A stretch of 64,000 bases of DNA from an uncultured Pseudomonadales bacterium (lineage in GTDB: Bacteria > Patescibacteriota > Microgenomatia > UBA1400 > MFAQ01). The notes beneath the pieces were generated by a model, which worked only from the letters and a program-made list of their open reading frames with translations, was not told where the DNA came from and searched no databases. Location: NCBI GenBank assembly GCA_964487665.1, contig CAZARR010000004.1, positions 816 through 64,815 of the forward strand, in the 5' to 3' direction. This document shows, in pieces, positions 18,799-45,323 of the stretch (the stretch's first letter is position 1; every line of letters begins with the position of its first letter). A program made the translations under genes and the position numbers.

Positions 18799-18802
18799 TT
18801 TG

Positions 18803-20257: not shown

Positions 20258-20284
20258 ATTTAGATCGAATTGTAATGTGTTTTT

Positions 20285-23911: not shown

Positions 23912-24780
23912 AAGATCGGTTTATTCACTTTGGCAAAGACCTGGTCGTCGCTGATGACTTGGGGTGTCGTGAGAGAAATTTTCCGGATTTTTGGAATAGC
24001 TGCGAGCAATATTTTTATATATCCGGGGTGTTTTGCAAATCTAAGTATAGAGTAACAAAGAAAATTAAGCCGGTAACTCAACTGGGTGAAATTTTTCCAA
24101 TTGAAAACGAACTCGTTAACTTCCTTCAGTGTGGCGACAAAATTTGCATTGAGATTTTTGAAAGTCGACTCGTGTTGGTGGAGTACCTTTGGTTCAGGGG
24201 CCCAGATAATTTTGTATCCAGATTTCCAAGCTCGCCAGCCCAGGTCAATGTCTTCCCAATAACCCGGGGAATAGATCGGGTCGAAACCGCCTAGATGGTC
24301 CCAGATAGCCTTTTTGAAAATTGCACTTCCTCCTGAAGCCCACGCAGTATAAAACGACTGCGATTTGTCTAGAGCTCTTCGATATTGTAGTTTTCCGAAG
24401 TGAAAATCTACAAAAGGCCAGGAAGAATCCTTTTCGTTAAAGGACACGGCGAAAACCTTCGGATCTGAAAAATAACTGAGTGAATATTTGAGAAAATTTT
24501 CTTTGGGTGAAACATCATTATTAAGAAGGACGACGTATTTGGCCGTGGAACTTGAAACAGCTAAGTTTACAGACTTGACGAAACCTAAGTTGGTGGAGTT
24601 TATTATCAACCTAATCTTCGGATAGTGATGCTGAAGAAATTCAACAGTGTCGTCATTACCCCCATCGACAACAATTGTGGTGGAAAAACCTGATTCTGCG
24701 AGAAATAGTTCCGGTAGATGTTGTTCTAGTAGTTTTTTGCCATTGTAACTGGGAATGATTACTTCAACCTCAGAATCCAT
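23908..24780 (-). CDS. Glycosyltransferase family 2
   Basis: VEVIIPSYNGKKLLEQHL...TIVVDGGNDDTVEFL...VLLNNDV. Its stop overlaps the start of 23078..23911. Confidence 0.75.
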   Translation of the reverse strand: MDSEVEVIIPSYNGKKLLEQHLPELFLAESGFSTTIVVDGGNDDTVEFLQHHYPKIRLIINSTNLGFVKSVNLAVSSSTAKYVVLLNNDVSPKENFLKYSLSYFSDPKVFAVSFNEKDSSWPFVDFHFGKLQYRRALDKSQSFYTAWASGGSAIFKKAIWDHLGGFDPIYSPGYWEDIDLGWRAWKSGYKIIWAPEPKVLHQHESTFKNLNANFVATLKEVNEFVFNWKNFTQLSYRLNFLCYSILRFAKHPGYIKILLAAIPKIRKISLTTPQVISDDQVFAKVNKPIL

Positions 24781-24782
24781 TT

Positions 24783-28587: not shown

Positions 28588-29657
28588 ATAATTAACTTGA
28601 ATTTATCAGAAAAGTTTGAACGCGAATACTTAATCGAGTCAGCAATTGCTTGGGAAGATACCCTATCGACTATTTTGCTGTCTTCGATTGCCTTTGTTGT
28701 CCATAATACGATTTCACTGATATTGTGTGCAAGGAAACCATTTGAACCGTGATTGATAATTTCTTTTTGTCCTCCTTTGGCAACGACAATGGGGACACAT
28801 CCGGCTGACATAGCCTCGACCGTGGCCATACCAAAATGTTCTACTTTTTCGGGACTTGCCATTTCATCGATTCCATAGCCGGCTGAATGCCAGAAAAACC
28901 TAGCCTGAGAGTATAGTTTGGCTAGTCTATCTATTGATGGATTGGTAAGAATCTCAACAGGGTATCCGAACGACAGTTTCTTTAAAGGTTCAATTTGTCT
29001 TAAATCTTCACCAATACCCCCCGCTAATATAAGCTTGTATTGGGGGTATTTTTTATAAACCACCTTGAATGCTTTGATTAGAATGTCCTGTCTTTTGTTA
29101 TGCGCTTGCTTTGGTGAGTTGAAGCGTGCAACAGATAGTATTGAATCGTTTTTGGTCGAGGAACTAAATCGATCGATATCTATCGGTGGATAAACAACTG
29201 TACCTTTATTGAAATTTAATTGTGACTCAATAACATTTTGGGTGAATTTTGAGTTATATACAATTTTGTTAATTAAAGTTAGTTTAAGTTGATTCATGAC
29301 TCTGTTCCCTCCCAGATGCTGAAAGGGAACCTGAAAGTGTAATAGATTTTTTTGGGCAAATAGGAAAGGAATGCTTCCATCACTAACAAAAAAAATTAGG
29401 TGGTAGTTGCTCGTATATATATACTTTTTAATAAGTGAGACACGTTTGGTTAATAATGAGTAGGCCAATGGGTTAATCGATATAGACAAGAGGTCTAGCC
29501 CAAATCTTTGTTGGGCTTGTCTAAAGATGTCTTCGTTGTCCCAGGCTATTTCTGTATGATAACCCATACTTTTGAGAGTAGTGGCTACAGTTAGGGAATA
29601 CCTTTCTCCCCCGCCCATGGTATCGAGGTATGGATCAAAGATTAGGGCCTTTTTCAT
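28584..29657 (-). CDS. Glycosyltransferase family 4 (GT-B)
   Basis: The N-terminus DPYLDTMGGGERYSL and the motif HFGMATVEAMSAGCVPIVVAKGGQKEII are GT4 hallmarks. Confidence 0.75.
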   Translation of the reverse strand: MKKALIFDPYLDTMGGGERYSLTVATTLKSMGYHTEIAWDNEDIFRQAQQRFGLDLLSISINPLAYSLLTKRVSLIKKYIYTSNYHLIFFVSDGSIPFLFAQKNLLHFQVPFQHLGGNRVMNQLKLTLINKIVYNSKFTQNVIESQLNFNKGTVVYPPIDIDRFSSSTKNDSILSVARFNSPKQAHNKRQDILIKAFKVVYKKYPQYKLILAGGIGEDLRQIEPLKKLSFGYPVEILTNPSIDRLAKLYSQARFFWHSAGYGIDEMASPEKVEHFGMATVEAMSAGCVPIVVAKGGQKEIINHGSNGFLAHNISEIVLWTTKAIEDSKIVDRVSSQAIADSIKYSRSNFSDKFKLII

Positions 29658-30462
29658 ATGTTAATTTTTTTAGTAGTTCCCGATCGATCGATCGATAGGT
29701 CTGTCCTAAGGAGGGTTTACGTTGCATTTCCCAAAGCCGCTCGTACGAAATAAACCTTGAGAACATTTGATAAATAACCTCAATGATACCTTCGGTTCCA
29801 TCACGCCATAGACCCTGGATGACAAACCTATCCCAAAACTCTGTTGCCAAAATACGAAAAAATCGCCACCCTTTCATCTGCGGATGACCAATACTGTAAA
29901 GCATTTGTGCCTCGAGCTTGGACCACTTGAGGGTGCTTGTTAACTTTTCGTCAATATTTTTGTGGGACAAGTGAAGTATTTTGTTTGTCAGCTTGCCTAT
30001 TGAGCCATCGATTTGAGGTTGTTCATGGAGCTTTCCGTGCCATTTTTTAAGTGAGTCTTTTTTCATCAGGCGAAGAACAAAGGGGTGTGGCCAATAATCC
30101 AAATGTTTTCCTAAAAAAATTTCATATCTGGGAATTGCATAGGCTGTGTGCTGGTTCATCGAAATGACTCTGTTAACTTCTTGGGCTAGCTCGGGAGGAA
30201 TGCGTTCGTCTGAGTCTAGGTACAGTAACCACTCACCAGAGGCATTGGCCGCCCCATCGTTTCGCCACTTGGAAAAATTGTAGCCAGGACTTTCGACAAT
30301 TTTTGTGGCGTATTTTTTGGCTATCTTGAGTGTGTTGTCGGTTGAACCTGTGTCTGTATCTACATAAATAATTTCATCAGCAAACAAAGAACTTTTGAAT
30401 GCAGGTTCGACTTCGGCTGCTACATTATTTCCTAAAATTATTATTGAAATTGTGTTTTTCAT
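29635..30462 (-). CDS. Glycosyltransferase family 2
   Basis: ISIIILGNNVAAEVE...IIYVDTDTGSTDNTLKIAKKY...LYLDSDE; 275 aa. Confidence 0.7.
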   Translation of the reverse strand: MKNTISIIILGNNVAAEVEPAFKSSLFADEIIYVDTDTGSTDNTLKIAKKYATKIVESPGYNFSKWRNDGAANASGEWLLYLDSDERIPPELAQEVNRVISMNQHTAYAIPRYEIFLGKHLDYWPHPFVLRLMKKDSLKKWHGKLHEQPQIDGSIGKLTNKILHLSHKNIDEKLTSTLKWSKLEAQMLYSIGHPQMKGWRFFRILATEFWDRFVIQGLWRDGTEGIIEVIYQMFSRFISYERLWEMQRKPSLGQTYRSIDRELLKKLTYEKGPNL

Positions 30463-31584
30463 TTAGTTTTTTGCAACTTTTAATTCCAGACTCATATTGT
30501 TCCGGGAAAGATTATTTTCCAGAAACAGAATTATTAATGGCGTTAGTAAAAAAGGGATTGTAAATATGTCTGGGAAAAGGGCGTGGTTCCAGCTTCCAGA
30601 TGATAAATAACCACCATAGCGAATAAGTAACGTGAAACCCAAAAGAAATAATATAACCCAGCTAGACCGTCTTGAAGTAACCAATGGTAGACCCATGTAG
30701 AGCCAAGTGAAATACCATGTGTGAACTTTGCTAATATTTGCTACGAGGTAAATGAGCATTGCGTAAGTTATGATTGATATTAGGTGTTTATTCTTTCTGA
30801 ATAGAAAGATGGGAAAATAAATTAGGCTGATGAACTTTGTGGTCCAGGATAATAAGAAAAATTTGAGTCCTCGCGTGATGTTGATCGGAAAGTAATATAT
30901 TGCAAGGAAAAAAAGAGCAATCATAATTAGGTCGTTGTGCGCATTGATTACAAGTTCAAATAAGAGAAGTGGATTGAAAAACCAGATAGGATAAATATAT
31001 TTAGTGGCGATTAGTTTTGAAAGAATCCAACCCGCGACCAGAAAAAGCCCTCCGCTCATAAGTTTATATAGGTAGAAGTTAGTAATAAATTTACCGGACG
31101 ACAGTAAAGAAGATATTATTGAAAAGAGAAGGGACGGAAATCCGTATGAATAAGTCGAATCAACCCAGTGGGTAAACCTTAGCCAAGAATCTGGACTAAG
31201 GGAAATTGGTGTTGTCGAGTAAGGATTGGAGTGGTAATACCAAACAATTTTTGCTCCGAACAGATAGCTGAAGATATCGTGTGAAGACATAGGGTAGGCA
31301 AAACAAAGTATCAATGTGATGACGAAAGAATAAAGTGGCAATTTAGTATCATTTAAGATTTTTTGGCTAAATAACATAAGTATTTGGACTGACGTTTGAG
31401 CGGCAATGATGAAGACGTAAAGATATAGGCTTGCAGTGGAAAAGGCGAGATTATTTCTTAATAGGGAAATAAAATTGACAACTGATGAGTTGTTGACTAG
31501 GGTGAGATTGCTATCGGTAAAGGAATAAGAAAAGATGACTAAAAAGAGCGAAATAACGATGAATATTATTGGAGCAAATTTCAT
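30463..31584 (-). CDS. Polytopic membrane protein, possibly a Wzy-like polymerase
   Basis: 373 aa with about 10 TM helices and no soluble domain. Its stop is adjacent to the next start. The function is a guess based on context with the Wzx-like gene. Confidence 0.35.
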   Translation of the reverse strand: MKFAPIIFIVISLFLVIFSYSFTDSNLTLVNNSSVVNFISLLRNNLAFSTASLYLYVFIIAAQTSVQILMLFSQKILNDTKLPLYSFVITLILCFAYPMSSHDIFSYLFGAKIVWYYHSNPYSTTPISLSPDSWLRFTHWVDSTYSYGFPSLLFSIISSLLSSGKFITNFYLYKLMSGGLFLVAGWILSKLIATKYIYPIWFFNPLLLFELVINAHNDLIMIALFFLAIYYFPINITRGLKFFLLSWTTKFISLIYFPIFLFRKNKHLISIITYAMLIYLVANISKVHTWYFTWLYMGLPLVTSRRSSWVILFLLGFTLLIRYGGYLSSGSWNHALFPDIFTIPFLLTPLIILFLENNLSRNNMSLELKVAKN

Positions 31585-32498
31585 TTAGCGATAAACGATC
31601 CCTTGCCTAAGTTACCAAGGAAAAAGTCTTTGATGGCAGTTTTCTGGGCCTGGTTGCCAGTTATCAGTTTCTTTAGCGCTTCTCGCAAGAGAGCAACCTT
31701 TGTTCTTATGCTAGCGTGCTTGGAACCGAATAATAATCTATTTCTGGTAATAAAGTAATCGTTTAATGGTGAGCCTATTCCAGAGCTCTGGGCGACTTTG
31801 TGCCAGATTTTAATCGAGGGATCAAAGATCAACTTCATCCCAGAGGATCGAATGCGGGTACAAAGATCGACATCCTCGAGATACATAAAAAATTTCTCGT
31901 CAAAAAGACCTATCTTTTGAAAGACGGTGGTTTTGGATATAAAGAGAGCGCCTGAAATGAAGTCAGTTTCGGCCTCAACCAATTTACCGTTGTCGACTTG
32001 ATCAACGTATCGGTGCGCGCCAAGTACGTTGGCCGCATCGAAAGTTCCCCCAGCGTACCAAATCACCCTGCCTAAATCGTGTTTGCGATATTTCTTTTTA
32101 AATTCGTAACCCTTGGCGAAGTATATGAGTCCTCCCAAGACGCCAACATCGGGGTTCAAAATCTTAGATCGAGCTATCTGTTCGAAAAAATCGCTACCAA
32201 CTAGGCAATCGTTGTTGATGAGAATAATAATATTTGAGCCATATTCTATTGCCCTTTTTATTGCGATATTATTCCCAGCGGCAAATCCGGTATTTGTTTT
32301 GCTCTTGATAAGAGTAATTCTCTTATCATTTATTAACTTATTTACCGAATCATCAGTGCTGGCGTTATCCAAAACATAGATACTATTTTCCCATTTTGGT
32401 GGTAGGGGGGAACTTGATAAACTGTCGATTAGTTCTAGAGTATCAGTAGCTCCATTGTAGTTGATAGTGATGGTGGCAACTTTGACACTCATTGGCAC
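31581..32498 (-). CDS. Glycosyltransferase family 2 (rhamnosyltransferase-like)
   Basis: ATITINYNGATDTLELIDSL...YVLDNASTDDS...ILINNDC...YLEDVDLCTR is the WbbL-like GT2 pattern. Confidence 0.75.
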   Translation of the reverse strand: MPMSVKVATITINYNGATDTLELIDSLSSSPLPPKWENSIYVLDNASTDDSVNKLINDKRITLIKSKTNTGFAAGNNIAIKRAIEYGSNIIILINNDCLVGSDFFEQIARSKILNPDVGVLGGLIYFAKGYEFKKKYRKHDLGRVIWYAGGTFDAANVLGAHRYVDQVDNGKLVEAETDFISGALFISKTTVFQKIGLFDEKFFMYLEDVDLCTRIRSSGMKLIFDPSIKIWHKVAQSSGIGSPLNDYFITRNRLLFGSKHASIRTKVALLREALKKLITGNQAQKTAIKDFFLGNLGKGSFIAK

Positions 32499-33409
32499 TT
32501 GATCTTTCGTGTCAACTTTAGTAATGCCCGAACAATTTTTTTTGGGTTTTGTTGTATGAGCATGGTGTAGTACCAGTAATTAAATTCATTAATTTTTCTT
32601 TTTAGTGGTTTTTTTATCAACCGTTGCACCTCGATTTCTTTGTGTGCGGGGAACGATTGTTTTTGCCATACCTTTAGATAGACCAAAAAGACTGAAAATG
32701 CCTGTAGAGTGGCAAGAACCAAACCATGCAGGCCATCCTTGTAACCCTCGCCAGCAAAATAACGGCTAAGAAATTCGCTCACTGGTCTTGTGAAAGCATC
32801 GATGGGATCAAACTGATACTTTTGTTCAATTAGTTCGAGTGCCTGGACCTCACTATAGCGAAGTGAACGAGATATGTATTGCTCAACTGAAGTGTAGTGG
32901 TTATGCTTGATAGCGAATTTTTCCTCTTCGGGTAAGTTTAAACCCCTTCCTTGGGTGATAGGTATCGAGTGAATGGTATTTTGCCATTCAACAAAGTTTT
33001 TTTTAAAAAATCTGATATTGTAGTCGGGCCACCAACGCGAGTGTTTGATCCAATTACCAAAAATAATGTTTTGCCGAGGAAGACGAACAAAATCGGCTTG
33101 ATCCTCATTAACAATTTGGCGTAATTTTGCAGCCAGATTTTTTGGAATGGTTTCATCTGGATCGACTACAAGAATCCATTCGTACTTGGCTTTTTTGATG
33201 GCAAAGTTTCGTGCTGGTTCGACGAAATTTAGTGGTTCATGCAAGTAGACCGAATCAGTATAGCGATAAGCGATATCACGGCTTTTATCTGTCGAGTGCA
33301 TATCTACAACAACAATTTCGTCTACAAAAGAAATACTCTGTAGGCACGATTCTAATAATTCGGCCTCATTTAGGGTGTTAACCACCGCTGAGATTTTCTT
33401 ATTGTTCAT
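32489..33409 (-). CDS. Glycosyltransferase family 2
   Basis: ISAVVNTLNEAELLESCLQSI...IVVVDMHSTDKS...LVVDPDE; 306 aa. Confidence 0.75.
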   Translation of the reverse strand: MNNKKISAVVNTLNEAELLESCLQSISFVDEIVVVDMHSTDKSRDIAYRYTDSVYLHEPLNFVEPARNFAIKKAKYEWILVVDPDETIPKNLAAKLRQIVNEDQADFVRLPRQNIIFGNWIKHSRWWPDYNIRFFKKNFVEWQNTIHSIPITQGRGLNLPEEEKFAIKHNHYTSVEQYISRSLRYSEVQALELIEQKYQFDPIDAFTRPVSEFLSRYFAGEGYKDGLHGLVLATLQAFSVFLVYLKVWQKQSFPAHKEIEVQRLIKKPLKRKINEFNYWYYTMLIQQNPKKIVRALLKLTRKIKCQ

Positions 33410-36400
33410 GACAGTTAAATTTATAGATGTTTATACCTTGGTAGTCAAAGATATTGTCGAGGCAAATGTCACGGTAATTGACAGATAATTTGAGATGGTG
33501 AGGTAAATATACATAGCTTATGTTGTTGGTTGCGAGAAATTGGAGCATCCAAGTAGTATCCAAGGTGTTAAAAAAGCGTTGAATTTGCTTTAATCGAAGT
33601 GAATAATCGTAACCTGTTATGTCTAAATTAATAGTGTCTGCTAAATACTCTGGTTGCCCCGAAAATGCTGAGATGTATCCGGTTGATGAATATGCGTATA
33701 GTGGTTTTGGTGACGGGGGATCGGAAATAATTGAGCGGAGGAAACTATGGGGTGGTGATATGACAATCCCCCTTGGCTGGTTCTGAAGCATCTGCAGAGC
33801 TCTAAGTTCGCTATAGCTTATTCGTGAGGCGGATAGGTTGGTGAGATAGTCCTTGAGCGTACCGATTGTCGTAGGTGAGATAAGGGTGACCACAATTAGC
33901 ACAACGACGAACCGACGAAGACGACTGGGGTGTTGGAGCCACGAGGCGATGCTAGCTACGGCGAAAAGGCTAAGAAAAAATTGTGCATAGTAAAAGAACT
34001 GAATAGTGTTCCATGGGTTGGATTTTTGTACAAGTATGAGGGGGGTAATAATACCCGCTAAAACAATAATCGAGGTTAGGTTTTTGGTTGGATAGTTCTC
34101 TTTGCTAAGTGAAAACTGGATAAAACCAACTATTCTTGCACCCAGATTACCCAAGACAAATACTGTCAGCGCAAAGATGTTTATTATGGTTAGTTTTATC
34201 AGATCGCCATTAATTTCGTATGCTTGCCAAGCAGTGACTAGTTTTTGCCAGTTCAGATGGTCTTGAGCCGCAAACATACTTTTGTAAAACCAAAAAGGGT
34301 GGAAAATAAATGGTGAACTTGCTTGAGTAAGTAATGGAAACACTAGTAACAAACCAACAATGAAGACACCAATAAAAAGTTTGTAATTTTTTTGTAATAG
34401 TAGGGCAAGTGCTAATAGTAAAAAACTATAAAACTTAATTTGGGCAAGCAAACCCCCGAGCAGAATTAATACGAGAGTTCGTCTGGAGGTGAGTGGTTGC
34501 ACTTTGCTTCGCTCTAGTAAGATAAGAAATATCAAGATAAAGACAATGGATAATGCAAAAGGGGGGTTTAGCAGAATGGATATTGATTGATTAGACCAAA
34601 AAACTGATTCTCCTGAAAACACCGAACGTCCTGATATTAAAGCTGGGATAAAGCCCAGTGATCCTGTTAAGAAACAGCCAATAATGCTTAGAGTAATGGC
34701 TTGGTCGGAATAATTCCACAAGCGGAGGAGCTTGATTAAAAGAATAATTATCAGGGTAGTTGTGGTTATCGGGATTATTCGAAAGTATAAATCCAAGGGT
34801 TGGATGTGGGAAAAGCGGCTAATAATAGCAAGAAGGTAATCGAATCCCAAGTGATAACTTTGCAATAGGTGACCTGAAATCATCGGGTTAAGAAAGTTGG
34901 TTAGGGATTGCCGAAATGAGGAAATTAGCGAAAGGTGAAAGATGGCATCGTGCCCATTGGGACCCCAGAAACCCATTCCAAACACATACAGCTGGCCACT
35001 CCTAAACATTGTAAGTAGAACCAAAAACTCAGTAACAATACCTGTGGCGAATACTAACATTGAGGAAAAAGGGTTTTTTCGAAACTGATATGCGATAGAT
35101 AGGATAGCAAGTGCGATTAGGATGGTTACAACAATGGTGTTTTTATTGGTGTTGGCGTATGGAAGTTGGGGTCGAATTTGCCAAACAGTACCATGTTTTG
35201 TTTTGACTGTTTTAACATCTGGTAATTTGACCTGGGGCACTTGAAGATTAAGAAGTTCTATTTCTTGCGGTTTTAGAATAATTTGTTTTTGTTGATCAGC
35301 TAAAGTCACTACCCAACTATTTTCTAAGGTTTTGAATTCTGTGATACCAAATCCAAGTGATATGACGGAACTGGGATATTTGACAGAGTCAATGGCTGCA
35401 TAGTTTTCGGCTAGAAGTTGTTGCGAATAATTCGGAGATAAATAATTATCCTCGGCCTCCTTTTGATTAAAGATCCGTAAATCAATAATTTGGGTATCGT
35501 TTGGTGTCGATCGTAGACCGATTCGATAAAATGAATTTTGATACCAAATTAACTCGCCATTTTGGTTACCTGTGACATCGGGGGAGCGATACATAAACGA
35601 CGGTGAAGATTCTGGGTAAAAGGAACGGAACCAATGACCGAAATTTGAAAGTGATATTGGGGTGAGCTCGTACTCTTTGCTTTTTTCACTGATAAGTTGG
35701 TAGGTGTTTATGATTTCTTGGTGGTAGTGGTTTGGAGATAAGCTATTATCTAAACCAACGATAATTTGGGAAAACTCATTATATGAATGGTCGCTGTATA
35801 TTTTTAACAGTCTATCTAAATATCTAGTATCGAGACCAGAACTAAGATAATCGTTTGCCTGAAGAGAGTAGCCATTGTCTTGGTAATTTGTATAGAAGTT
35901 AAATGGATCGCGCACAGCCCATTTGACAATCGGAAGTGGCAACCTGTTTTTACTTGAGGATGCCGGTATCAGAGTGTTTGTTTGGGATGGGTAATAGGGA
36001 CTGGCCAAGTAGGAACCCCAAAGACGGTAGTCACTGCCTAAAAATTGTTCGTCATGGACAGCGGCAGCAGTCACGGCGTAGTTATCGGTAAGGTATTTAA
36101 GGGAAAAACTATCAATGTACCAAGCGCCAACTGTTTGCGGGAAAAAACCAAAACGTTGGTAAAATTGATTCATATATGAATCAATTAGTTTTATTCGGTC
36201 GGCCTGATCATAATCGGCAAGCGATATTGACCTTGGTTGCTTGAGAAATTCTCCCGGGGGAAATTTTACAGTCGCAAGGGACGAAAGATTTGGGGTAATC
36301 TCGAGATAGGCCCCCACTGACTGGGACGAGTCTGAGGAAATTATTTTTTTGAAAAAGCTTGAAATTGCTTGATCGGAAATGGCGTCATAACGGAGTAGCC

Positions 36401-36608
36401 ATGTGATTGGAAGGGCTGACGGCGTTGATTCCTGATATTGTAACCTGGGCAGGTCAAGGGGGGTGTGTGTTTTTTCTTGACCCCAGCCTTCCCAGCCACT
36501 AACAGGGTTAACAATAGAAACAAAAGTTTGTCTTTCGAAAGATCTGACCGGAAAAAATACACCTGATAGTAAAAACATGACGATGAAGAGTGGCACAATC
36601 TTATGCAC
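33399..36608 (-). CDS. Large fusion protein: N-terminal extracytoplasmic domain (~500 aa) plus C-terminal 'GHD' family polytopic membrane domain
   Basis: 1069 aa. It has an N-terminal signal/TM segment. Its C-half motifs FWGPNGHDAIFHLSLISSF...NPMISGHLL.SYHLGFD...LDLYFRIIPI and LLNPPF are homologous to 16798..18798. Confidence 0.5.
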   Translation of the reverse strand: MHKIVPLFIVMFLLSGVFFPVRSFERQTFVSIVNPVSGWEGWGQEKTHTPLDLPRLQYQESTPSALPITWLLRYDAISDQAISSFFKKIISSDSSQSVGAYLEITPNLSSLATVKFPPGEFLKQPRSISLADYDQADRIKLIDSYMNQFYQRFGFFPQTVGAWYIDSFSLKYLTDNYAVTAAAVHDEQFLGSDYRLWGSYLASPYYPSQTNTLIPASSSKNRLPLPIVKWAVRDPFNFYTNYQDNGYSLQANDYLSSGLDTRYLDRLLKIYSDHSYNEFSQIIVGLDNSLSPNHYHQEIINTYQLISEKSKEYELTPISLSNFGHWFRSFYPESSPSFMYRSPDVTGNQNGELIWYQNSFYRIGLRSTPNDTQIIDLRIFNQKEAEDNYLSPNYSQQLLAENYAAIDSVKYPSSVISLGFGITEFKTLENSWVVTLADQQKQIILKPQEIELLNLQVPQVKLPDVKTVKTKHGTVWQIRPQLPYANTNKNTIVVTILIALAILSIAYQFRKNPFSSMLVFATGIVTEFLVLLTMFRSGQLYVFGMGFWGPNGHDAIFHLSLISSFRQSLTNFLNPMISGHLLQSYHLGFDYLLAIISRFSHIQPLDLYFRIIPITTTTLIIILLIKLLRLWNYSDQAITLSIIGCFLTGSLGFIPALISGRSVFSGESVFWSNQSISILLNPPFALSIVFILIFLILLERSKVQPLTSRRTLVLILLGGLLAQIKFYSFLLLALALLLQKNYKLFIGVFIVGLLLVFPLLTQASSPFIFHPFWFYKSMFAAQDHLNWQKLVTAWQAYEINGDLIKLTIINIFALTVFVLGNLGARIVGFIQFSLSKENYPTKNLTSIIVLAGIITPLILVQKSNPWNTIQFFYYAQFFLSLFAVASIASWLQHPSRLRRFVVVLIVVTLISPTTIGTLKDYLTNLSASRISYSELRALQMLQNQPRGIVISPPHSFLRSIISDPPSPKPLYAYSSTGYISAFSGQPEYLADTINLDITGYDYSLRLKQIQRFFNTLDTTWMLQFLATNNISYVYLPHHLKLSVNYRDICLDNIFDYQGINIYKFNCHEQ

Positions 36609-38061
36609 GATCGGGAAGAAAATGGTTAATTGTGGTTAAAAAAATTGCTTTTCCCTCAAGTAGGTAGACCATAAAGAGGTAGGTTAGTACTCCGCCAGTC
36701 GAAATACACATGAACAGAGGGAGGGTTGTGGCATAGGGTCTAAGAATCAAAAGATATAGTCCTAGGGCGGTTGAAGCGATTGTCGGAGTACCCAGTGATC
36801 GATAGACACCAAACCCGATCATTCTTTTGATGACCATAATAACCGCAAGGGATGATAAGGCGATAAGTCCGACTGAGTAACTTACTCCCAGATAACCCCA
36901 TTTAATGGCAAAAATTGGCATCAATACCCAGGTCAAGACTGTCCACATAACCATAAGTTTGAACGTCGTTTTTATTTTCCCTATGGCGTTAAGGGCATTG
37001 GTCATCATAGTTGAAATGCTAGCCCAAGCCGCATTAAAGAGATAAAGGTAGAGAGGTGTGACGGCAGGGAGCCATTTGGTATAGTTTGGGATGAGATAAA
37101 TTAGTGGAATGATTAGAAAAGCCATGGCAGTAAAAATAGGAAACAATAGTAGAGTGAGATATTTAATACTAATTTCTATCGCTTTGGTAAGACGCGTGCG
37201 ATCGTGCTGCAATCTGGCGAACGTTGGAAAGGCGACTTTGGTTAGGTTGTCCATAAACATCCTCATGGGAAGCTCAGCGTTTCTTTTTGCCCAGCCGATG
37301 TAGCCAAGGCCATTTTGACCGATTAATTTACCAAGGACGATGGTCATACCGTCGTCCTTAATTACTGCCAAAAAGGTATTGATCTGATAAGGTATGCCGA
37401 ACTTAAGTAGGTGTGAAAGTGATTGTTTGCTAATTCCTAGAGATGGTTTCCATGGAGAAACAACATACATGGCAACGAGGCCGACAAATCCTCGGACAAG
37501 AACTGCAATTGTAAATGTCGTTATTCCCCAATGGTTCCAGGCCAAGTAAACAGCCACCAGGTTAAAGGAGAGTGTCTCTAGAACAACCGGTATGATTAAC
37601 TTATCGAACTGGATGTTACGCTCTAAAATAACTGATGGAATGGTTTTGAATGAACTAAGCAGCAGAGACACACCCATCGCCCAGAGAAGGTAAACGCCAG
37701 CGGGGTCTATTCCAAAAAACAGTTTGATGGTAGGTGTGAATATAAAGAGTAGTAGTATCAAAATAGCCACAAGAATCTGCTGAACTGTAAACGTGGTACG
37801 TAGATCATCGGATGTTAACGACTCCTTTTTTTGAATCAGTGCACCAGCCAGACCAATGTCGGAAAAGTAAGCTAAAAAGTTTACTACTGAGCCGACAAGG
37901 TAATACACCCCATAAGTACTAGGGTTAAGAAAAACTGATAGAACGAACTGGGAAACAAGGGCGATGATCTGAACGATAAACGAGCGTGAGACTAAGGCCA
38001 CAAACCCAACTATTGCGCGTCTTTTAATCTCGGTTATATCAATTTGCGAGGCTTGTGGCAC
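36601..38061 (-). CDS. Wzx-like oligosaccharide flippase (MOP/polysaccharide biosynthesis protein family)
   Basis: 486 aa with about 14 TM helices. The N-terminus KRRAIVGFVALVSRSFIVQIIALVSQFVLSVFLNPSTYGVYYLVGSVVNFLAYFSDIGLAGALIQ is typical of the Polysacc_synt family. Confidence 0.65.
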   Translation of the reverse strand: MPQASQIDITEIKRRAIVGFVALVSRSFIVQIIALVSQFVLSVFLNPSTYGVYYLVGSVVNFLAYFSDIGLAGALIQKKESLTSDDLRTTFTVQQILVAILILLLFIFTPTIKLFFGIDPAGVYLLWAMGVSLLLSSFKTIPSVILERNIQFDKLIIPVVLETLSFNLVAVYLAWNHWGITTFTIAVLVRGFVGLVAMYVVSPWKPSLGISKQSLSHLLKFGIPYQINTFLAVIKDDGMTIVLGKLIGQNGLGYIGWAKRNAELPMRMFMDNLTKVAFPTFARLQHDRTRLTKAIEISIKYLTLLLFPIFTAMAFLIIPLIYLIPNYTKWLPAVTPLYLYLFNAAWASISTMMTNALNAIGKIKTTFKLMVMWTVLTWVLMPIFAIKWGYLGVSYSVGLIALSSLAVIMVIKRMIGFGVYRSLGTPTIASTALGLYLLILRPYATTLPLFMCISTGGVLTYLFMVYLLEGKAIFLTTINHFLPDRA

Positions 38062-39761
38062 AGTGAAATTGTAGCATTAGATTTGGTATGGGCCACAAAG
38101 CTGATCGCGGTAATAACGATAGATATCAAACTAATTATGTTGGCATATCGACGCAAAGGTGTGTCTGCATATATAGCCCTAATTTGATGGGTACCTTGGG
38201 GAATTGTGAAACTTATAGCGCCAATCTGACTAAGAAAGACTGGAGTATTTTGACCGTCGACTAAAATTTTCCACCCGGGATAATAGAAACTGTTGAATGT
38301 GGCGGTTGTGTTCGACGGTGTAGTTGTCAATACAAGATAGTCCAGCGGATTTTCTCTGATCTGGGTAACCAGTGCTCCGGGCAAGGGAACCTCAATTTTA
38401 GATGTCGGCATACTATCCGGTCTGATCGCATTTAAAGGGAGTGGATAATAGTTTTCTGTGTAATCAAGATATTCGGACGATACATTTTCATTTGAGTGGA
38501 TAATTTGATTGGGTAAATAACGACGGAGATAATAATCATCATTACGATTAACCCGCTCACCAACCTGAAAATAGTGAATGTTTACTGCAATAATTGATAA
38601 AGCAATTAGTAGGGCCAGGATTGGTCTTTTTACAAACATAGGAGTGGAAGAGACTAGTAGAAAAATCAGAGTTGTCAGAAAAGTAGTCGACATAAGCAAT
38701 CTCCAAGGAAACTGGATCGAATCAGTAAAGGGAAAGATTTGCCAAAGAAAAGCAGATCTGGTGTTCATAAGAAAAATAGTTGCAAAAAAGAACAAAAGAG
38801 CAAAAAGTAAAAAAAGATAAAAATTGTTTTGCCTTACTTTCCATGTTTTCGAGCGAAATATTGTAAAAATCCCTACAGCCACAAAAAGTAAATTGAAAGC
38901 GCCAATTTGAAATGACATTTGATCATCCGGTCCCCAATGAGACGATCCGTACCCCCACGCTGAGTAAATTAATTGTTTGACAAAAGGGAACTGATCGTAG
39001 AAATTAAACGGGGCTACTTTTTGTATGAAATGTTGTTCAAGAATAACTGGGAGTAAGTAGAAGGCGGAGAGTCCCGCAGATAAGATGGGTACGGCCAATA
39101 GTTTCTTTATTGCTCTGGTATTTTTCTCCATAGCTGCCGTTAGAAAGACAATGCCAAATATTACTGGGGCTACAAAAACCGTGGCAGGTTGGTGGGTAAT
39201 TATTAGTAGGGCACAAAAAATCGATGATAAAAAGACATCTCGATTCATATTATGTCTTAATATTCGAAAAAGGTAGTGAAATAACCAGGGGAAAAGTGCG
39301 ATGGCAGCAGATTCACCGATAGTTCCCCGGACATAAATATCGACGGCCCGATAGGGCGTGTAGGTATAAAGTACAGAGGCGGCTAGGGCATAAACTGGAG
39401 TGGCCATCGTTAACCCAAGAATATACATACCTAGTGCTCCAACGACTACTGAAATCAGCAGGATAATTTTGTAGGTGTCTACCAAGGTGAAACCGAGATG
39501 TTTGATGAGGTAGCCAAGATAGTACGGGAGCTGATAGTTAAATTCTGGATAGGGCGAGCCATATGTAAAATGCATATCGGGTGCCCACCGTGGTGGAAAT
39601 TGGCCTAAATCCATTACTTTGATAAATTGATGGAGGTTGGCGATTTGGGTCTCGTCATGAAAAGTAAAAAACCCTGGGTGGACGAGAGGAACAATCGAAG
39701 GGATTGTCAGCAAAAGAGTGGCTAACAAACAGATAAGTTTATTTTTGCGGGTTTCTTTCAT
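38034..39761 (-). CDS. Polytopic membrane protein, family A (PTPS-related-like), tandem copy 3
   Basis: HPGFFTFHDETQIANLHQFIKVMDLGQFPPRWAPDMHFTYGSPYPEFNYQLPYYLGY; 575 aa with a C-terminal extracytoplasmic domain. Confidence 0.5.
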   Translation of the reverse strand: MKETRKNKLICLLATLLLTIPSIVPLVHPGFFTFHDETQIANLHQFIKVMDLGQFPPRWAPDMHFTYGSPYPEFNYQLPYYLGYLIKHLGFTLVDTYKIILLISVVVGALGMYILGLTMATPVYALAASVLYTYTPYRAVDIYVRGTIGESAAIALFPWLFHYLFRILRHNMNRDVFLSSIFCALLIITHQPATVFVAPVIFGIVFLTAAMEKNTRAIKKLLAVPILSAGLSAFYLLPVILEQHFIQKVAPFNFYDQFPFVKQLIYSAWGYGSSHWGPDDQMSFQIGAFNLLFVAVGIFTIFRSKTWKVRQNNFYLFLLFALLFFFATIFLMNTRSAFLWQIFPFTDSIQFPWRLLMSTTFLTTLIFLLVSSTPMFVKRPILALLIALSIIAVNIHYFQVGERVNRNDDYYLRRYLPNQIIHSNENVSSEYLDYTENYYPLPLNAIRPDSMPTSKIEVPLPGALVTQIRENPLDYLVLTTTPSNTTATFNSFYYPGWKILVDGQNTPVFLSQIGAISFTIPQGTHQIRAIYADTPLRRYANIISLISIVITAISFVAHTKSNATISLCHKPRKLI

Positions 39762-41412
39762 TTGATATCACCACCCAGCTAATCAATGTGGCAGCACTAA
39801 TAAATGTGAGAAGGTTGGCTAATTGTCTAATTGGGGTATTTTCAAACCAGGCTTGAACTAGCTGTGGTCCTTTCCCAAGTTTAATAGTAATCAATCCGAG
39901 ATCATTATCAGTAGATATATCAACAGGCTTGGATTGTCCATTGATGTATACATGCCATCCGGGAAAATACATCACCGGGAATTCAACGGTGGCATCAATT
40001 GAGTAAACTTCTATTTCGCTAGCAAAATAATTCGATCTTTTGACAAATTTTTGCACATGTCCACCCCCCGTTTTCGTGGTGGGATTATCAGGGGCGAATT
40101 TTATGGGGGGGTTTTTGACGGTACGGGGAAGATAATCCAGTAAACCGCCTGCACTTTGGGTGACGAAAGAATCACCGGTAAGAATGTCCCGATCGGTTGT
40201 GGTAGGTAAATAGTCTCGAAAGCGGAAATGGTTGAAGCTTGGAAAGATTAATAGTGCGATAACCATCGAAAGAATAATCTTCTTTTGTTTAAAGTTGATC
40301 GAATCAAATGATAAACCTATTAAAAATGAGGTTCCGATGGCGACGAGGGCAAGAAACCTCCATGGAAATTGTGCATACGATAATAGTGGTAAGTTTTTCC
40401 ACAATGGCCACGATCGTCCATGGGTCATAAATAAACTTGCGAAAGTTAGGAATAAAAAGAAGATACTGATGGCGAATTTTTCTTTTTCATACTTTTTTAT
40501 CTGCCAGATAATTAAAATGGGTGAAAACACCAAAGTTATTAATGGGATAAGTCCAATAAAAAATGATAGCCCATCGATTGGACCGGACCGAGATGGACCA
40601 TACCCCCAGTAAAAGTCGAACAAAAGTTGTTTGATAGTTGCGAAGTGAATGAATACATTGAAGTAACCCTTGGTAAGGCGTTCGGACTGTATGAGGCTTG
40701 TCTCAAAAAATGCCGGGATAACAAAGAACGACGATAAACCAAAAGCAAGAACAAAAGCCGCCAAAAGGTATTTTAGAAGATTGGTATTTTTCTTGTGGTG
40801 GATAAATTGAATGATAGTGAAAATAATAATAAAAGGCGCGCATAATAGCGAAGTGATGTTGTGCGTAGCGAGAAATATCGCTAATGAAATAGCGCTACCC
40901 GCTGTATGGGTAACGGTGGCTTGTTTCACCAGTTTGGTTATTGAATAAAGAACAAGGGGGAATAAAGCCATTCCCCATAATTCGGCCAGAGCCCCGCGAA
41001 CAAAGACGTTGAGGATGTGATATGGCGCAACGATGTACGCCAAAGCAGCGATAAGGCTAGCCATCCTGCCTAGGTAATTTTTAAATAGTAGGTAAGCAAA
41101 ATACCCCGAGAAAAATATTGGAAGAAAGAACAATATCTTGACCGCATCCACGTACGATACCCCGAGCACGGTGAACACAGCCCCTAGATAGTATGGGAAA
41201 GCCGAGTAAAAGTTGAACATTGGCTGTCCATAACCCAATCCCATATCGGGTGACCAACGACAGGGAATTTGGCCATCTGCAAGACACTTGTTCATCTGGA
41301 AGAGACGCATTACGTGTAAGTCATCCTGAACCCAAAAGTATCCAGGCCTAAACAGCTGCCAACCGACAAGAAACGAAAAAACTAAGAGAATGACGAGGTC
41401 AACTTTCCGCAT
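39739..41412 (-). CDS. Polytopic membrane protein, family A, tandem copy 2
   Basis: RPGYFWVQDDLHVMRLFQMNKCLADGQIPCRWSPDMGLGYGQPMFNFYSAFPYYLGA. It overlaps the next gene by 23 nt. Confidence 0.5.
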   Translation of the reverse strand: MRKVDLVILLVFSFLVGWQLFRPGYFWVQDDLHVMRLFQMNKCLADGQIPCRWSPDMGLGYGQPMFNFYSAFPYYLGAVFTVLGVSYVDAVKILFFLPIFFSGYFAYLLFKNYLGRMASLIAALAYIVAPYHILNVFVRGALAELWGMALFPLVLYSITKLVKQATVTHTAGSAISLAIFLATHNITSLLCAPFIIIFTIIQFIHHKKNTNLLKYLLAAFVLAFGLSSFFVIPAFFETSLIQSERLTKGYFNVFIHFATIKQLLFDFYWGYGPSRSGPIDGLSFFIGLIPLITLVFSPILIIWQIKKYEKEKFAISIFFLFLTFASLFMTHGRSWPLWKNLPLLSYAQFPWRFLALVAIGTSFLIGLSFDSINFKQKKIILSMVIALLIFPSFNHFRFRDYLPTTTDRDILTGDSFVTQSAGGLLDYLPRTVKNPPIKFAPDNPTTKTGGGHVQKFVKRSNYFASEIEVYSIDATVEFPVMYFPGWHVYINGQSKPVDISTDNDLGLITIKLGKGPQLVQAWFENTPIRQLANLLTFISAATLISWVVISNERNPQK

Positions 41413-43075: not shown

Positions 43076-43076
43076 T

Positions 43077-45315: not shown

Positions 45316-45323
45316 AAGGAGAA

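What the first reader, a model, noticed from the sequence alone, without database searches (positions are those of the whole stretch)
33399..36608. 1069-aa fusion of an unknown ~500 aa extracytoplasmic domain to a 'GHD' family membrane module shared with 16798..18798
The membrane halves of both proteins carry W-x-x-NGHD-x-x-FHLSLI, NP-x-x-SGH/HPL, YH-x-G-x-D, LDLYFR-x-x-PI and LNPP/GNPP motifs. This defines a second uncharacterised family here, probably a GT-C enzyme. In the 1069-aa protein that module is preceded by a large Ser/Tyr-rich, signal-anchored domain (DYDQADRIKLIDSYMNQFYQRFGFFPQTVGAWYIDSF...) that could bind or process a glycan, as a carbohydrate-binding or deacetylase-like module would. 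A fusion of a glycan-modifying domain with its membrane transferase is unusual.
Basis: seen in the sequence. Interest (0 to 1): 0.55.

Follow-up and report, generated by a model that had tools for sequence, protein, structure and literature searches.

The report
Flippase-coupled GT-C transferase with enzyme-like domain
This is a real, conserved membrane protein of uncultivated Microgenomates (CPR) bacteria that joins an outward-facing, enzyme-like sugar-handling barrel to a lipid-donor (GT-C) glycosyltransferase and is always encoded right after a glycan flippase, so it most likely builds or finishes a cell-surface glycan, although its chemistry is untested.

Summary
ORF 33399..36608(-) is an intact 1069-aa protein, and its C-terminal half is a paralog of 16798..18798(-) (29% identity over 531 aa, E=6e-46).

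The fusion is not an artefact: about 85 full-length homologs exist in Collier-, Woese- and Daviesbacteria.

- **Membrane half:** the AlphaFold model (pLDDT 91) has a GT-C fold. Best matches are STT3/AglB/PglB, DPY19 and AftA/AftD. No Pfam, NCBIfam or PDB sequence match reaches threshold. The family has about 1,838 clusters at 50% identity.
- **N-terminal half:** the model (pLDDT 92) is a DUF3863-like (β/α)7 barrel plus β-sandwich of the glycoside-hydrolase/deacetylase superfamily (PDB 3lm3, Foldseek E=5e-17). It has no conserved histidine, so it is not a CE4 metal-dependent deacetylase. Its conserved set is Asp, Glu, Arg and aromatic residues.
- **Recurrence:** the same domain also occurs fused behind PMT_2-type GT-Cs, and in proteins that lack the GT-C core.
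- **Context:** in all 8 loci examined a Wzx flippase gene precedes the fusion, often with the same 8-nt overlap and once fused in frame. A GT2×3–GT4 block usually follows.

Best reading: an extracytoplasmic transferase for a flipped lipid-linked glycan, with a built-in glycan-processing or glycan-binding domain. It is a new variant of a known kind.

The parts
33399..36608 (-). Whole 1069-aa fusion ORF (GTG start, stop codon at 33399..33401)
   Evidence: Full-length homologs.
36546..36602 (-). N-terminal signal-anchor helix (aa 3-21)
   Evidence: Hydropathy scan. Helix 4-18 in the AF2 model.
35604..36533 (-). DUF3863-like (β/α)7 barrel (aa ~26-335). Family-conserved residues at the strand C-termini are R37, D75, E103, R138, W163, D166, Q188, D192, R233, D253 and E287. 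In this copy they read S37, S192 (with D193) and D287.
   Evidence: AF2 model pLDDT 92.4. Foldseek 3lm3 E=5e-17. Profile against 3lm3 E=3e-6. Conservation tables.
35169..35603 (-). β-sandwich subdomain that follows the barrel (aa ~336-480)
   Evidence: Strand-only secondary structure in the AF2 model. The 3lm3 alignment spans 434 columns, the full length of that chain.
35076..35138 (-). Connecting TM helix (aa ~491-511). It returns the chain to the cytoplasmic side before GT-C TM1.
   Evidence: helix 2-16 of the module model.
33846..35066 (-). GT-C transmembrane core (aa ~515-921, 11 TM helices)
   Evidence: AF2 pLDDT 90.8. Foldseek hits to STT3, AglB, PglB, DPY19, AftA and AftD, probability 1.0, TM-score about 0.5.
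34800..35003 (-). First extracytoplasmic loop (EL1, aa ~536-603) with two juxtamembrane helices. It carries the GHD motif (H553, D554, H558) and Y585, H586, D590. D554 is the candidate catalytic Asp.
   Evidence: Invariant columns in A2 and A3. Helices 59-72 and 93-105 in the model. The catalytic role is an inference by analogy with GT-C enzymes.
33402..33845 (-). C-terminal soluble α/β domain of the module (aa ~922-1069), predicted to be extracytoplasmic
   Evidence: In other family members this domain is homologous to the tail of the ~675-aa N-domain proteins that lack a GT-C core. This copy itself did not reach E≤0.01 in that test.
36601..38061 (-). Wzx-type flippase (Polysacc_synt_3). Its stop overlaps the fusion's start by 8 nt.
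   Evidence: Pfam E=2e-51. The same arrangement is seen in L001, L002, L003, L038 and L039, nearly the same in L037, and fused in frame in L036.
32489..33409 (-). GT2 glycosyltransferase (306 aa). Its start overlaps the end of the fusion ORF by 11 nt.
   Evidence: Pfam. A GT2 of 291-312 aa follows the fusion in L001, L003, L037 and L038.
27049..32498 (-). Rest of the co-directional block: GT2 (31581..32498), 9-TM protein with no family (30463..31584), GT2 (29635..30462), GT4 (28584..29657), 512-aa membrane protein with no family (27049..28587)
   Evidence: A GT2-GT2-GT4 order is conserved in L001, L003, L037 and L038.
16798..18798 (-). Stand-alone paralog of the GHD GT-C module (666 aa, with three extra N-terminal TM helices)
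   Evidence: In L036 and L039 a stand-alone module is encoded immediately after the fusion.

Best explanation
The gene encodes a two-part enzyme that acts on the outer face of the membrane, in a Wzx-dependent surface-glycan pathway of a Microgenomates (CPR) bacterium.

**Shown**
- An N-terminal anchor helix is followed by a DUF3863-like (β/α)7 barrel plus β-sandwich, then one connecting TM helix, then a GT-C-fold module of 11 TM helices with a C-terminal soluble domain.
- An even number of TM helices separates the barrel from the GHD loop, so both lie on the same side of the membrane.
- The gene overlaps a Wzx flippase gene and is followed by GT2 and GT4 genes.

**Inferred**
- Cytoplasmic GT2 and GT4 enzymes build an oligosaccharide on a polyprenyl carrier.
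- Wzx flips that oligosaccharide to the outer face.
- The GT-C module then transfers the flipped glycan to an acceptor: a growing polymer, a wall component or a protein. D554 in the first external loop would act as catalytic base. H553, H558, H586, D590, E667 and K725 would hold the lipid-phosphate leaving group, possibly through a metal ion. This is the role that Wzy, WaaL or an oligosaccharyltransferase plays in other pathways.
- The N-terminal barrel holds or processes the same glycan. Its conserved carboxylates, arginines and aromatic residues at the barrel top (D75, E103, R138, D166, Q188 and others) suit glycoside cleavage, transglycosylation or tight glycan binding. They do not suit metal-dependent deacetylation.
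For: **Architecture and conservation.**: about 85 full-length homologs.

**Structure models.** pLDDT 92.4 for the N-domain and 90.8 for the module.

**GT-C fold.**
- Foldseek finds 22 GT-C chains with probability ≥0.99 and TM-scores around 0.5, including STT3, AglB, PglB, DPY19, AftA, AftD, AftB and PimE.
- Most of the invariant polar residues fall in loops predicted to be extracytoplasmic: D554, Y585, H586, E667, W671, N681, K725, W773, Q861, N867 and Q870.

**N-domain.**
- It matches 3lm3, annotated 'putative glycoside hydrolase/deacetylase', at E=5e-17. Weaker matches follow to HP0310, ArnD, other CE4 proteins and GH57.
- At sequence level the profile hits 3lm3 at E=3e-6, and 8 of 14 members hit DUF3863.
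- All ten core positions are intact in 87 of 104 homologs.

**Functional linkage to GT-C enzymes.** The same domain is fused C-terminally to PMT_2 GT-Cs (P0097, P0098, P0100; P0102 and P0103 have the same multi-TM layout).

**Linkage to the flippase.**
- Wzx is directly upstream in the window and in L001, L002, L003, L038 and L039.
- In L037 one 90-aa ORF lies between them.
- In P0249/L036 it is fused in frame.

**Oligosaccharide assembly.** A conserved GT2×3 plus GT4 block lies downstream.

**No other terminal enzyme.** No Pfam Wzy_C, O-antigen ligase or STT3 hit was found among the window ORFs scanned.
Against: - No biochemical data exist for any member of either domain family.
- The donor type, polyprenyl-PP-oligosaccharide or polyprenyl-P-monosaccharide, cannot be read from the sequence.
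- No priming phosphoglycosyltransferase was found in the window.
- A 9-TM protein with no family (30463..31584) could be a Wzy-like polymerase, which would take away the polymerase role.
- MATE/MOP flippases are also proposed to flip monophosphate-linked single sugars for GT-Cs (PMC11127046).
- The catalytic assignment of D554 rests on its position in the topology, not on a structural superposition.
- In the window's own protein three near-invariant barrel residues are changed (R37S, D192S, E287D), so this copy's N-domain may have altered or reduced activity.
- The in-frame Wzx fusion is a single cluster from an automated assembly.
Confidence: 0.45

Rival explanations
1. The protein is part of a three-component side-chain glycosylation system. 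The adjacent 306-aa GT2 charges polyprenyl phosphate with a single sugar. The MOP-family flippase exports that sugar-lipid. The GT-C module adds the one sugar to an already made surface polymer. The N-terminal barrel serves mainly as an acceptor-binding module, in the way a CBM does, and is not a catalyst.
For: - A GT2 of 291-312 aa directly follows the fusion in 5 of 8 loci.
- A MATE flippase plus a GT-C carrying an acceptor-binding CBM is a described arrangement (GT136 system, PMC11127046).
- From general knowledge, most characterised bacterial GT-Cs use monophosphate-linked single-sugar donors.
- Erosion of several barrel residues in part of the fusion clade, including the window copy, fits a binding role better than a catalytic one.
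Against: - The 306-aa GT2 has one hydrophobic segment (227-245). From general knowledge, GtrB/DPM1-type synthases have two C-terminal TM helices.
- The flippase matches Polysacc_synt_3 and Polysacc_synt, which from general knowledge are typical of repeat-unit Wzx flippases.
- D75, E103, R138 and D166 are conserved in 102-104 of 104 homologs, which is stricter than expected for a lectin-like site.
- In Daviesbacteria-type loci the GT2 is not adjacent.
Confidence: 0.3
2. The protein is an oligosaccharyltransferase-like enzyme that moves the flipped oligosaccharide onto proteins such as S-layer proteins, pilins or other surface proteins. The N-domain would trim the glycan or bind the glycoprotein.
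For: - The top structural matches are STT3, AglB and PglB (E from 5e-8 to 7e-5).
- The Wzx plus cytoplasmic GT block resembles protein-glycosylation loci. This comparison rests on general knowledge.
Against: - There is no WWDYG-type motif and no DxD/ExD motif in the module.
- There is no Pfam STT3 hit and no PDB sequence hit.
- TM-scores to the OSTs (about 0.5) are no better than to AftA (0.54), which acts on polysaccharide.
- No acceptor protein is evident in the locus.
Confidence: 0.12
3. The N-terminal domain is a CE4-type metal-dependent de-N-acetylase or deformylase, comparable to PgdA or ArnD, that modifies the sugar before or after transfer.
For: Foldseek ranks HP0310 PgdA (E=1.4e-7), ArnD (E=3.5e-6) and several CE4-like proteins directly after 3lm3. 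From general knowledge, ArnD acts on a lipid-linked sugar that a GT-C (ArnT) later transfers.
Against: - No histidine is conserved anywhere in the domain across 43 sequences. The best His column has 23 of 43. The Asp-His-His metal triad and the catalytic His that define CE4 (general knowledge) are therefore absent.
- No member hits Pfam Polysacc_deac_1, even at E≤10.
Confidence: 0.05
4. The long ORF is an artefact, produced by a missed stop, a frameshift or a chimeric assembly that joined two genes.
For: None was found. The only irregularities are that the start codon is GTG and that NCBI calls the protein 10 aa shorter.
Against: - About 85 independent homologs from many assemblies share the same end-to-end architecture.
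- 34 of 144 further family representatives are also N-domain plus module fusions.
- Both halves show similar conservation: 44% and 49% identity to P0002.
Confidence: 0.01

Closest known systems
GT-C(A)-fold glycosyltransferases with solved structures: STT3/AglB/PglB oligosaccharyltransferases, DPY19, and mycobacterial AftA/AftD
   Same: - Multi-TM core.
- A first external loop with two juxtamembrane helices and an invariant Asp just after TM1.
- A C-terminal soluble extracytoplasmic domain.
- Foldseek probability 1.0 and TM-scores of 0.44-0.54.
   Different: - There is no detectable sequence similarity.
- WWDYG and DxD motifs are absent.
- The module has its own signature: GHD...H, YH...D, LDLYFR, GESxFW, NPP.
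- It has 11 core TM helices in the model. From general knowledge, PglB and STT3 have 13.
- Donor and acceptor are unknown.
PDB 3lm3 / Pfam DUF3863 (BDI_3119 of Parabacteroides distasonis, 'putative glycoside hydrolase/deacetylase')
   Same: - The same barrel plus β-sandwich fold across the whole 434-residue chain (E=5e-17, TM-score 0.69 normalised to the target).
- Sequence-level profile hit at E=3e-6.
- Shared Q188, D192, G198 and the PYYPS segment.
   Different: - Only 15% identity.
- W163 and D166 are not conserved in 3lm3.
- The window protein does not reach any Pfam threshold.
- DUF3863 has no known function, and literature searches returned nothing useful.
- 3lm3 is a single 449-residue chain that aligns with the N-domain only. 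Here the domain is membrane-anchored and fused to a transferase.
Three-component extracytoplasmic glycosylation systems, especially the GT136 system of Citrobacter youngae (PMC11127046)
   Same: A flippase of the MATE/MOP type, a GT-C enzyme and a lipid-donor synthase are encoded together. The GT-C carries an additional extracytoplasmic domain that engages the acceptor glycan.
   Different: - There the accessory domain is a CBM. Here it is an enzyme-like (β/α)7 barrel with near-invariant carboxylates.
- Here the flippase matches Wzx-type Polysacc_synt_3.
- Here the locus also carries GT2×3 plus GT4, which suggests an oligosaccharide donor.
CE4 / NodB-type polysaccharide deacetylases and ArnD
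   Same: Related distorted (β/α) barrel fold. ArnD is a precedent for a barrel of this superfamily that works on a lipid-linked sugar in a GT-C (ArnT) pathway; this is from general knowledge.
   Different: - No conserved His, so no metal triad.
- No Pfam Polysacc_deac_1 signal.
- From general knowledge, ArnD acts on the cytoplasmic face, whereas this domain is extracytoplasmic.
GH57 (and GH38) glycoside hydrolases and transglycosylases
   Same: - Same superfamily fold (1k1x, 3p0b, 1ufa, 2b5d at E from 3e-5 to 2e-3).
- A W-x-x-acid motif after strand 4 (W163...D166) and an acid before a (W/F)G motif (D192...W197-G198). From my memory of the family, these resemble GH57 regions 3 and 4.
   Different: - The spacings differ.
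- There is no Pfam GH57 hit.
- TM-scores are only about 0.33.
- The motif resemblance comes from memory and was not tested by superposition.

Membership tests
GT-C fold glycosyltransferases | Polytopic membrane core (7-13 TM helices) with a GT-C fold | tested here: met
   AF2 model with pLDDT 90.8 and 11 core TM helices. Foldseek probability ≥0.99 to 22 solved GT-C chains.
GT-C fold glycosyltransferases | Conserved acidic catalytic residue in the first extracytoplasmic loop after TM1 | tested here: met
   D554 (GHD motif) is invariant in A2 and A3 and sits at the start of the first juxtamembrane helix after TM1. Its catalytic role was not tested.
GT-C fold glycosyltransferases | Uses a polyprenyl-phosphate-linked or polyprenyl-diphosphate-linked sugar donor | not testable with these tools
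   The only support is indirect: the gene overlaps a Wzx flippase gene.
STT3/PglB/AglB oligosaccharyltransferases | WWDYG motif in the C-terminal domain and DxD/ExD motifs; Pfam STT3 | tested here: not met
   No WWD, W.D.G, D.D, E.D or D.E pattern in aa 491-1069. No STT3 Pfam hit.
Pfam DUF6541 | Score above the gathering threshold over most of the 646-position model | tested here: not met
   The paralog scores 25.5 bits against a cut-off of 29, over model positions 2-135 only. The fusion protein gives no hit. Four of 18 members give weak hits.
Pfam DUF3863 / 3lm3-like barrel | Sequence match to PF12979 | tested here: inconclusive
   The window protein gives no hit even at E≤10. Eight of 14 N-domain relatives hit weakly, best E=1.8e-4. 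The family profile hits the 3lm3 sequence at E=3e-6.
Pfam DUF3863 / 3lm3-like barrel | Same fold over the whole domain | tested here: met
   Foldseek E=5e-17, 434 aligned columns, TM-scores 0.61 and 0.69.
CE4 (NodB) polysaccharide deacetylases | Asp-His-His metal triad plus catalytic Asp and His motifs | tested here: not met
   No conserved His column in 43 sequences. No Polysacc_deac_1 hit.
GH57 glycoside hydrolases | Five conserved regions with a Glu nucleophile and an Asp acid/base; Pfam Glyco_hydro_57 | tested here: inconclusive
Wzx/Wzy-dependent glycan pathway | Wzx flippase encoded in the locus | tested here: met
   Polysacc_synt_3 at E=2e-51, overlapping the fusion gene by 8 nt. The arrangement is conserved in 8 of 8 loci examined.
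Wzx/Wzy-dependent glycan pathway | Recognisable Wzy polymerase and priming phosphoglycosyltransferase in the locus | tested here: not met
   No Wzy_C, Bac_transf or Glycos_transf_4 (MraY/WecA-type) hit in any scanned window ORF. From general knowledge, Wzy proteins are often undetectable by sequence. The 9-TM ORF 30463..31584 remains a candidate.
Three-component (GtrA/GtrB/GtrC-like) glycosylation | Polyprenyl-P-sugar synthase GT2 with C-terminal TM helices next to the flippase and the GT-C | tested here: inconclusive
   An adjacent GT2 is present but has a single hydrophobic segment. It is adjacent in 5 of 8 loci.

The most novel reading that the evidence does not exclude
The GHD module is a previously unrecognised class of GT-C enzyme that takes over the Wzy, WaaL or LCP step in Microgenomates. 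It would receive Wzx-flipped lipid-linked repeat units directly from the flippase, with which it is translationally coupled and occasionally fused, and polymerise or ligate them. The fused DUF3863-like barrel would be a new catalytic family, a transglycosylase or hydrolase, that remodels or attaches the product. Together they would form a one-polypeptide 'flip, transfer, process' machine for the CPR cell envelope, and would give DUF3863 its first functional assignment.
Probability: 0.2. Interest if true: 0.75.

Novelty: new variant of a known kind. Interest (0 to 1): 0.5.

Why it matters
CPR/Patescibacteria genomes are crowded with GT-C genes whose products and roles are unknown. From general knowledge, their cell envelopes are thought to mediate attachment to host cells, yet no envelope glycan pathway in them has been worked out.

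**What the locus offers.** It is a concrete, conserved unit: Wzx, then the barrel-GT-C fusion, then GT2×3 and GT4. That unit could be moved into a tractable host.

**What would follow if the reading is right**
- A sizeable orphan GT-C family, about 1,838 clusters at 50% identity, would get a role.
- DUF3863, which has had a solved structure since 2010 and still has no function, would get a pathway context.
- GT-C enzymes would be shown to recruit enzyme-like accessory domains, not only lectin-type ones.

**Strength of the link.** The domain has been fused to two unrelated GT-C families, and in the opposite order. Independent fusions of this kind (a Rosetta-stone argument) are unusually strong evidence for a functional link.

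Tried and rejected
- **Direct family scans.** Pfam, NCBIfam and PDB-sequence searches of the window protein returned nothing. The module-only profile also has no PDB sequence hit.
- **Literature.** Searches for DUF3863, DUF6541, 3LM3 and 'GT-C' with 'Patescibacteria' gave nothing relevant.
- **Shared Wzy-like component.** I tested whether the 9-TM ORF 30463..31584 resembles the unannotated proteins in the clusters that hold N-domain-only proteins. No similarity was found.
- **Tail profile.** The HMM built from the tails of the ~675-aa proteins matched many module proteins but not the window's two copies at E≤0.01. That link is therefore shown for the family, not for this protein.
- **Source record.** The look-up of the window's source record through P0105 failed. 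The lineage is inferred only from the taxonomy of homologs.
- **Taxonomic breadth.** The genome scan used peptide patterns taken from the stand-alone family and returned only Microgenomates/Patescibacteria-type MAGs. Some of these carry doubtful bulk labels (Gammaproteobacteria, Bathyarchaeia, Clostridia). There is no evidence for the family in Firmicutes, but this was not an exhaustive test.
- **Rejected readings.** The CE4 deacetylase, STT3-family membership and assembly-artefact readings were all rejected.

Full report
**1. Observation**

- The window holds one uninterrupted 1069-aa ORF at 33399..36608 on the minus strand, with a GTG start. It holds a 666-aa ORF at 16798..18798 on the minus strand.
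- BLASTP aligns residues 535-1034 of the long protein with 119-634 of the short one at 29% identity, E=6e-46.
- In an 18-sequence alignment of the membrane module, D554, Y585, H586, D606, R610, E667, W671, N681 and K725 are invariant (fusion-protein numbering). H553 and H558 are nearly invariant there and invariant in the 27-sequence alignment A2.
- The N-terminal half has a single hydrophobic anchor (aa 3-21). A soluble region of about 470 aa follows, with 11.3% Ser and 6.8% Tyr.

**2. The fusion is real**

- A search of the 5.8-billion-protein collection returned 104 relatives. About 85 of them are 1000-1160 aa long and match both halves in the same order.
- They come from Collierbacteria, Woesebacteria, Daviesbacteria and unclassified Microgenomates or Patescibacteria MAGs.
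- In the exhaustive representative search with a module-only profile, 34 of the 144 new top representatives are also N-domain plus module fusions. The other 110 are module-only.
- Both halves are similarly conserved: 44% and 49% identity to P0002.
- A missed stop or frameshift is therefore excluded.
- NCBI's call of the identical protein starts 10 aa later (P0001, 1059 aa). The GTG at 36608 gives an 8-nt overlap (GTGCATAA) with the flippase stop, the same overlap length as in three homologous loci.

**3. The membrane module**

- Neither window protein reaches threshold in Pfam or NCBIfam. The paralog has a sub-threshold, N-terminal-only DUF6541 match, and 4 of 18 family members do likewise.
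- A family profile finds no PDB sequence.
- The AlphaFold model of residues 496-1069 is confident (pLDDT 90.8, pTM 0.91).
- Foldseek matches it to solved GT-C enzymes with probability 1.0:
  - human and yeast STT3
  - archaeal AglB
  - PglB
  - the C-mannosyltransferase DPY19
  - AftA (TM-score 0.54)
  - AftD, AftB and PimE
- The model shows, in order:
  - one connecting helix and then TM1;
  - a loop with a β-hairpin and two short helices, the first starting at H553-D554 and the second at Y585-H586;
  - ten more TM helices;
  - an α/β domain of about 150 residues.
- Counting helices places most of the invariant polar residues in extracytoplasmic loops. An invariant Asp just after TM1 is where GT-C enzymes carry their extracytoplasmic catalytic domain (PMC11127046; that the catalytic residue is an Asp or Glu is from general knowledge).
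- The module is not an STT3-family member. It has no WWDYG or DxD-type motifs.
- The family is sizeable: 1,838 representatives at 50% identity with E≤1e-3, and 916 with E≤1e-30. It comes as a core of about 565 aa, a form of about 650-670 aa with three extra N-terminal helices, and the fusions.
- All named genome hits are Microgenomates or Patescibacteria.

**4. The N-terminal domain**

- The model of residues 1-500 is confident (pLDDT 92.4, pTM 0.90). It shows a β/α barrel (about aa 26-335) followed by an all-β subdomain.
- The best structural match is 3lm3, the JCSG structure on which Pfam DUF3863 is based. It is annotated 'putative glycoside hydrolase/deacetylase' and matches at E=5e-17 over 434 aligned columns, the length of the 3lm3 chain.
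- Next come HP0310 PgdA, ArnD, other CE4-like proteins, PuuE allantoinase and GH57 enzymes.
- At sequence level the family profile finds 3lm3 at E=3e-6, and 8 of 14 N-domain relatives weakly hit DUF3863. The window protein does not.
- The domain is therefore a remote, CPR-specific branch of the DUF3863 and GH/CE barrel superfamily.
- No histidine is conserved, so the CE4 metal triad and catalytic His are missing.
- The conserved residues lie in or just after the barrel strands, toward their C-terminal ends:
  - P35 and R37 (strand 1)
  - W70 and D75 (strand 2)
  - G99 and E103 (strand 3)
  - R138
  - W163 and D166 (strand 4)
  - Q188 and D192 (strand 5)
  - W230 and R233 (strand 6)
  - Q250 and D253
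  - E287 (strand 7)
- Ten core positions are all intact in 87 of 104 homologs. D75, E103, R138 and D166 are intact in 102-104 of 104.
- This pattern suits a carbohydrate-active catalytic or tight-binding site. The chemistry is unknown.
- The window's own copy is unusual. It has S37 (the only Ser among the 43 sequences of A1), G191-S192 in place of T-D (with D193 following), and D287 in place of E. A minority of the same fusion clade (for example P0047, P0049, P0059) shows similar erosion.

**5. Same side of the membrane**

- Two TM helices separate the N-domain from the GHD loop in the window-type proteins. In the ~1150-aa Daviesbacteria-type protein checked (P0067), four hydrophobic segments fall between the N-domain and the module core.
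- The number is even in both cases, so the N-domain and the GT-C active-site loop lie on the same face. By homology with GT-C enzymes that is the extracytoplasmic face.
- Relatives of the domain that carry only a signal anchor (P0099, P0101), or that carry Ig and PKD domains (P0104), agree with an external location.

**6. Recurrent association with GT-C enzymes and with the flippase**

- The N-domain also occurs at the C-terminus of multi-TM proteins. Three of them (P0097, P0098, P0100) hit PMT_2, and P0102 and P0103 have the same layout. That is a different GT-C family and the opposite domain order.
- It also occurs in proteins of about 675 aa made of anchor, N-domain, two TM helices and a tail. 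The tail is homologous to the last TM helix plus soluble C-terminal domain of GHD-module proteins, at E from 1e-10 to 1e-14. These look like the fusion without its GT-C core.
- All of these sit in glycan clusters with Wzx, GT2 and GT4 genes.
- For the fusion itself, a Polysacc_synt_3 (Wzx) gene is immediately upstream in the window and in L001 (Woesebacteria), L002 and L039 (Daviesbacteria type), L003 (Collierbacteria) and L038. One 90-aa ORF intervenes in L037.
- In P0249/L036 the flippase, the N-domain and the module are one 1639-aa ORF, and the other two frames are closed at the junction. This is a single cluster from an automated assembly, so it may be an indel artefact.
- A block of GT2, GT2, GT2 and GT4 follows in the window, L001, L003, L037 and L038.
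- In L036 and L039 a stand-alone GHD module follows the fusion directly (E=9e-287 and 3e-198).
- The fusion and the stand-alone paralog share a contig in at least five assemblies (contig lengths).

**7. Mechanism**

- Shown: the architecture, the fold assignments, the conserved residues, the same-side topology and the gene coupling.
- Inferred: the cytoplasmic GT2 and GT4 enzymes assemble an oligosaccharide on a polyprenyl carrier, and Wzx flips it.
- Inferred: the GHD GT-C module transfers the flipped glycan to an acceptor, with D554 as catalytic base and the His, Asp, Glu and Lys cluster handling the lipid-phosphate leaving group.
- Inferred: the N-terminal barrel binds or processes the same glycan.
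- No Wzy_C, ligase, STT3 or priming transferase hit was found in the window. The GT-C module is therefore the best candidate for the terminal extracytoplasmic step.
- The main rival is a three-component side-chain glycosylation system, with the adjacent GT2 making a polyprenyl-P-sugar and the barrel acting like the acceptor-binding CBM of the GT136 enzyme (PMC11127046).
- Sequence alone cannot separate the two.

**8. Comparison and novelty**

- GT-C enzymes with extra extracytoplasmic domains are known. CBMs occur in EmbA-C, AftD and GT136 (PMC11127046). From general knowledge, MIR domains occur in PMTs and TPR repeats in TMTCs.
- An enzyme-like GH/CE-superfamily barrel fused to a GT-C was not found in my literature searches.
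- Both component families lack any annotation beyond 'hypothetical protein'.
- I rate this as a new variant of a known kind: a GT-C with an accessory domain in a flippase-coupled pathway. It is not categorically new.

**9. Limits**

- No structural superposition or full-length model could be made.
- The donor, the acceptor and the N-domain chemistry are all inferred.
- The window's organism is identified only through the taxonomy of its homologs.

Noticed in passing
L036 1868-6787 (protein P0249): A single 1639-aa ORF joins a Wzx flippase, the DUF3863-like domain and the GHD GT-C module, and a stand-alone GHD module (668 aa) follows directly. It is one cluster from an automated Logan assembly, so a 1-nt indel at the usual 8-nt overlap cannot be excluded.
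   Followed up: partly
Proteins P0086-P0096 and P0099 (for example L004 7001-9025): These proteins of about 620-680 aa mostly consist of an anchor, the N-domain, two TM helices and a C-terminal soluble domain homologous to the C-terminal domain of GHD-module proteins (P0099 shows only the N-terminal hydrophobic segment). They look like the fusion with its GT-C core missing. They lie in clusters with GT2 and GT4 genes; L004 also has a Wzx gene.
   Followed up: partly
window 18803..20257 (-) and 27049..28587 (-): Two membrane proteins with no family (484 and 512 aa) are paralogs of each other (24% identity, E=1e-10). Both have a DQ(A/G)RD motif just after TM1. One lies immediately upstream of the stand-alone GHD gene and the other ends the fusion's operon. 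This is probably another orphan GT-C-like family.
   Followed up: partly
window 30463..31584 (-): A 373-aa protein with 9 predicted TM helices and no Pfam hit sits between the GT2 genes of the operon. It is a candidate Wzy-like polymerase or another membrane transferase. It shows no similarity to the unannotated proteins of clusters L004 and L005.
   Followed up: partly
window 6317..47788: GT-C-type genes are exceptionally dense here. There are seven PMT_2 genes (8827-10479, 11453-13126, 13711-15123, 15144-16805, 20285-21853, 43077-44624, 46310-47788), four PTPS_related genes (6317-7981, 38034-39761, 39739-41412, 41399-43144), one YfhO gene (24783-27098) and the two GHD modules. Small GT2 genes are interspersed.
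   Followed up: partly
window 49654..50874 (-): A 406-aa fusion of a GT2 domain with a GtrA/DPMS transmembrane domain. It is probably a polyprenyl-phosphate sugar synthase joined to a flippase-like unit that could feed some of the GT-Cs.
   Followed up: no
window 36579..36608 (start of the fusion ORF): The public NCBI gene call for the identical protein (P0001) is 1059 aa and starts at Met11, which would truncate the signal anchor. The GTG at 36608 fits the conserved overlap with the flippase stop and the N-termini of homologs.
   Followed up: yes
Loci L007-L033 and proteins P0116, P0155: Several contigs that carry typical Microgenomates GHD-module genes are labelled 'uncultured Gammaproteobacteria', 'Bathyarchaeia archaeon', 'Clostridia bacterium' or 'Spirochaetia bacterium' in bulk MAG submissions. 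These are probably mislabelled and should not be read as a wider taxonomic range.
   Followed up: no
window 45324..46400 (-); L003 12883-13935: A DHH/DHHA1 phosphoesterase gene lies inside the glycan island in the window and near the fusion in the Collierbacteria locus. Its role is unknown.
   Followed up: no
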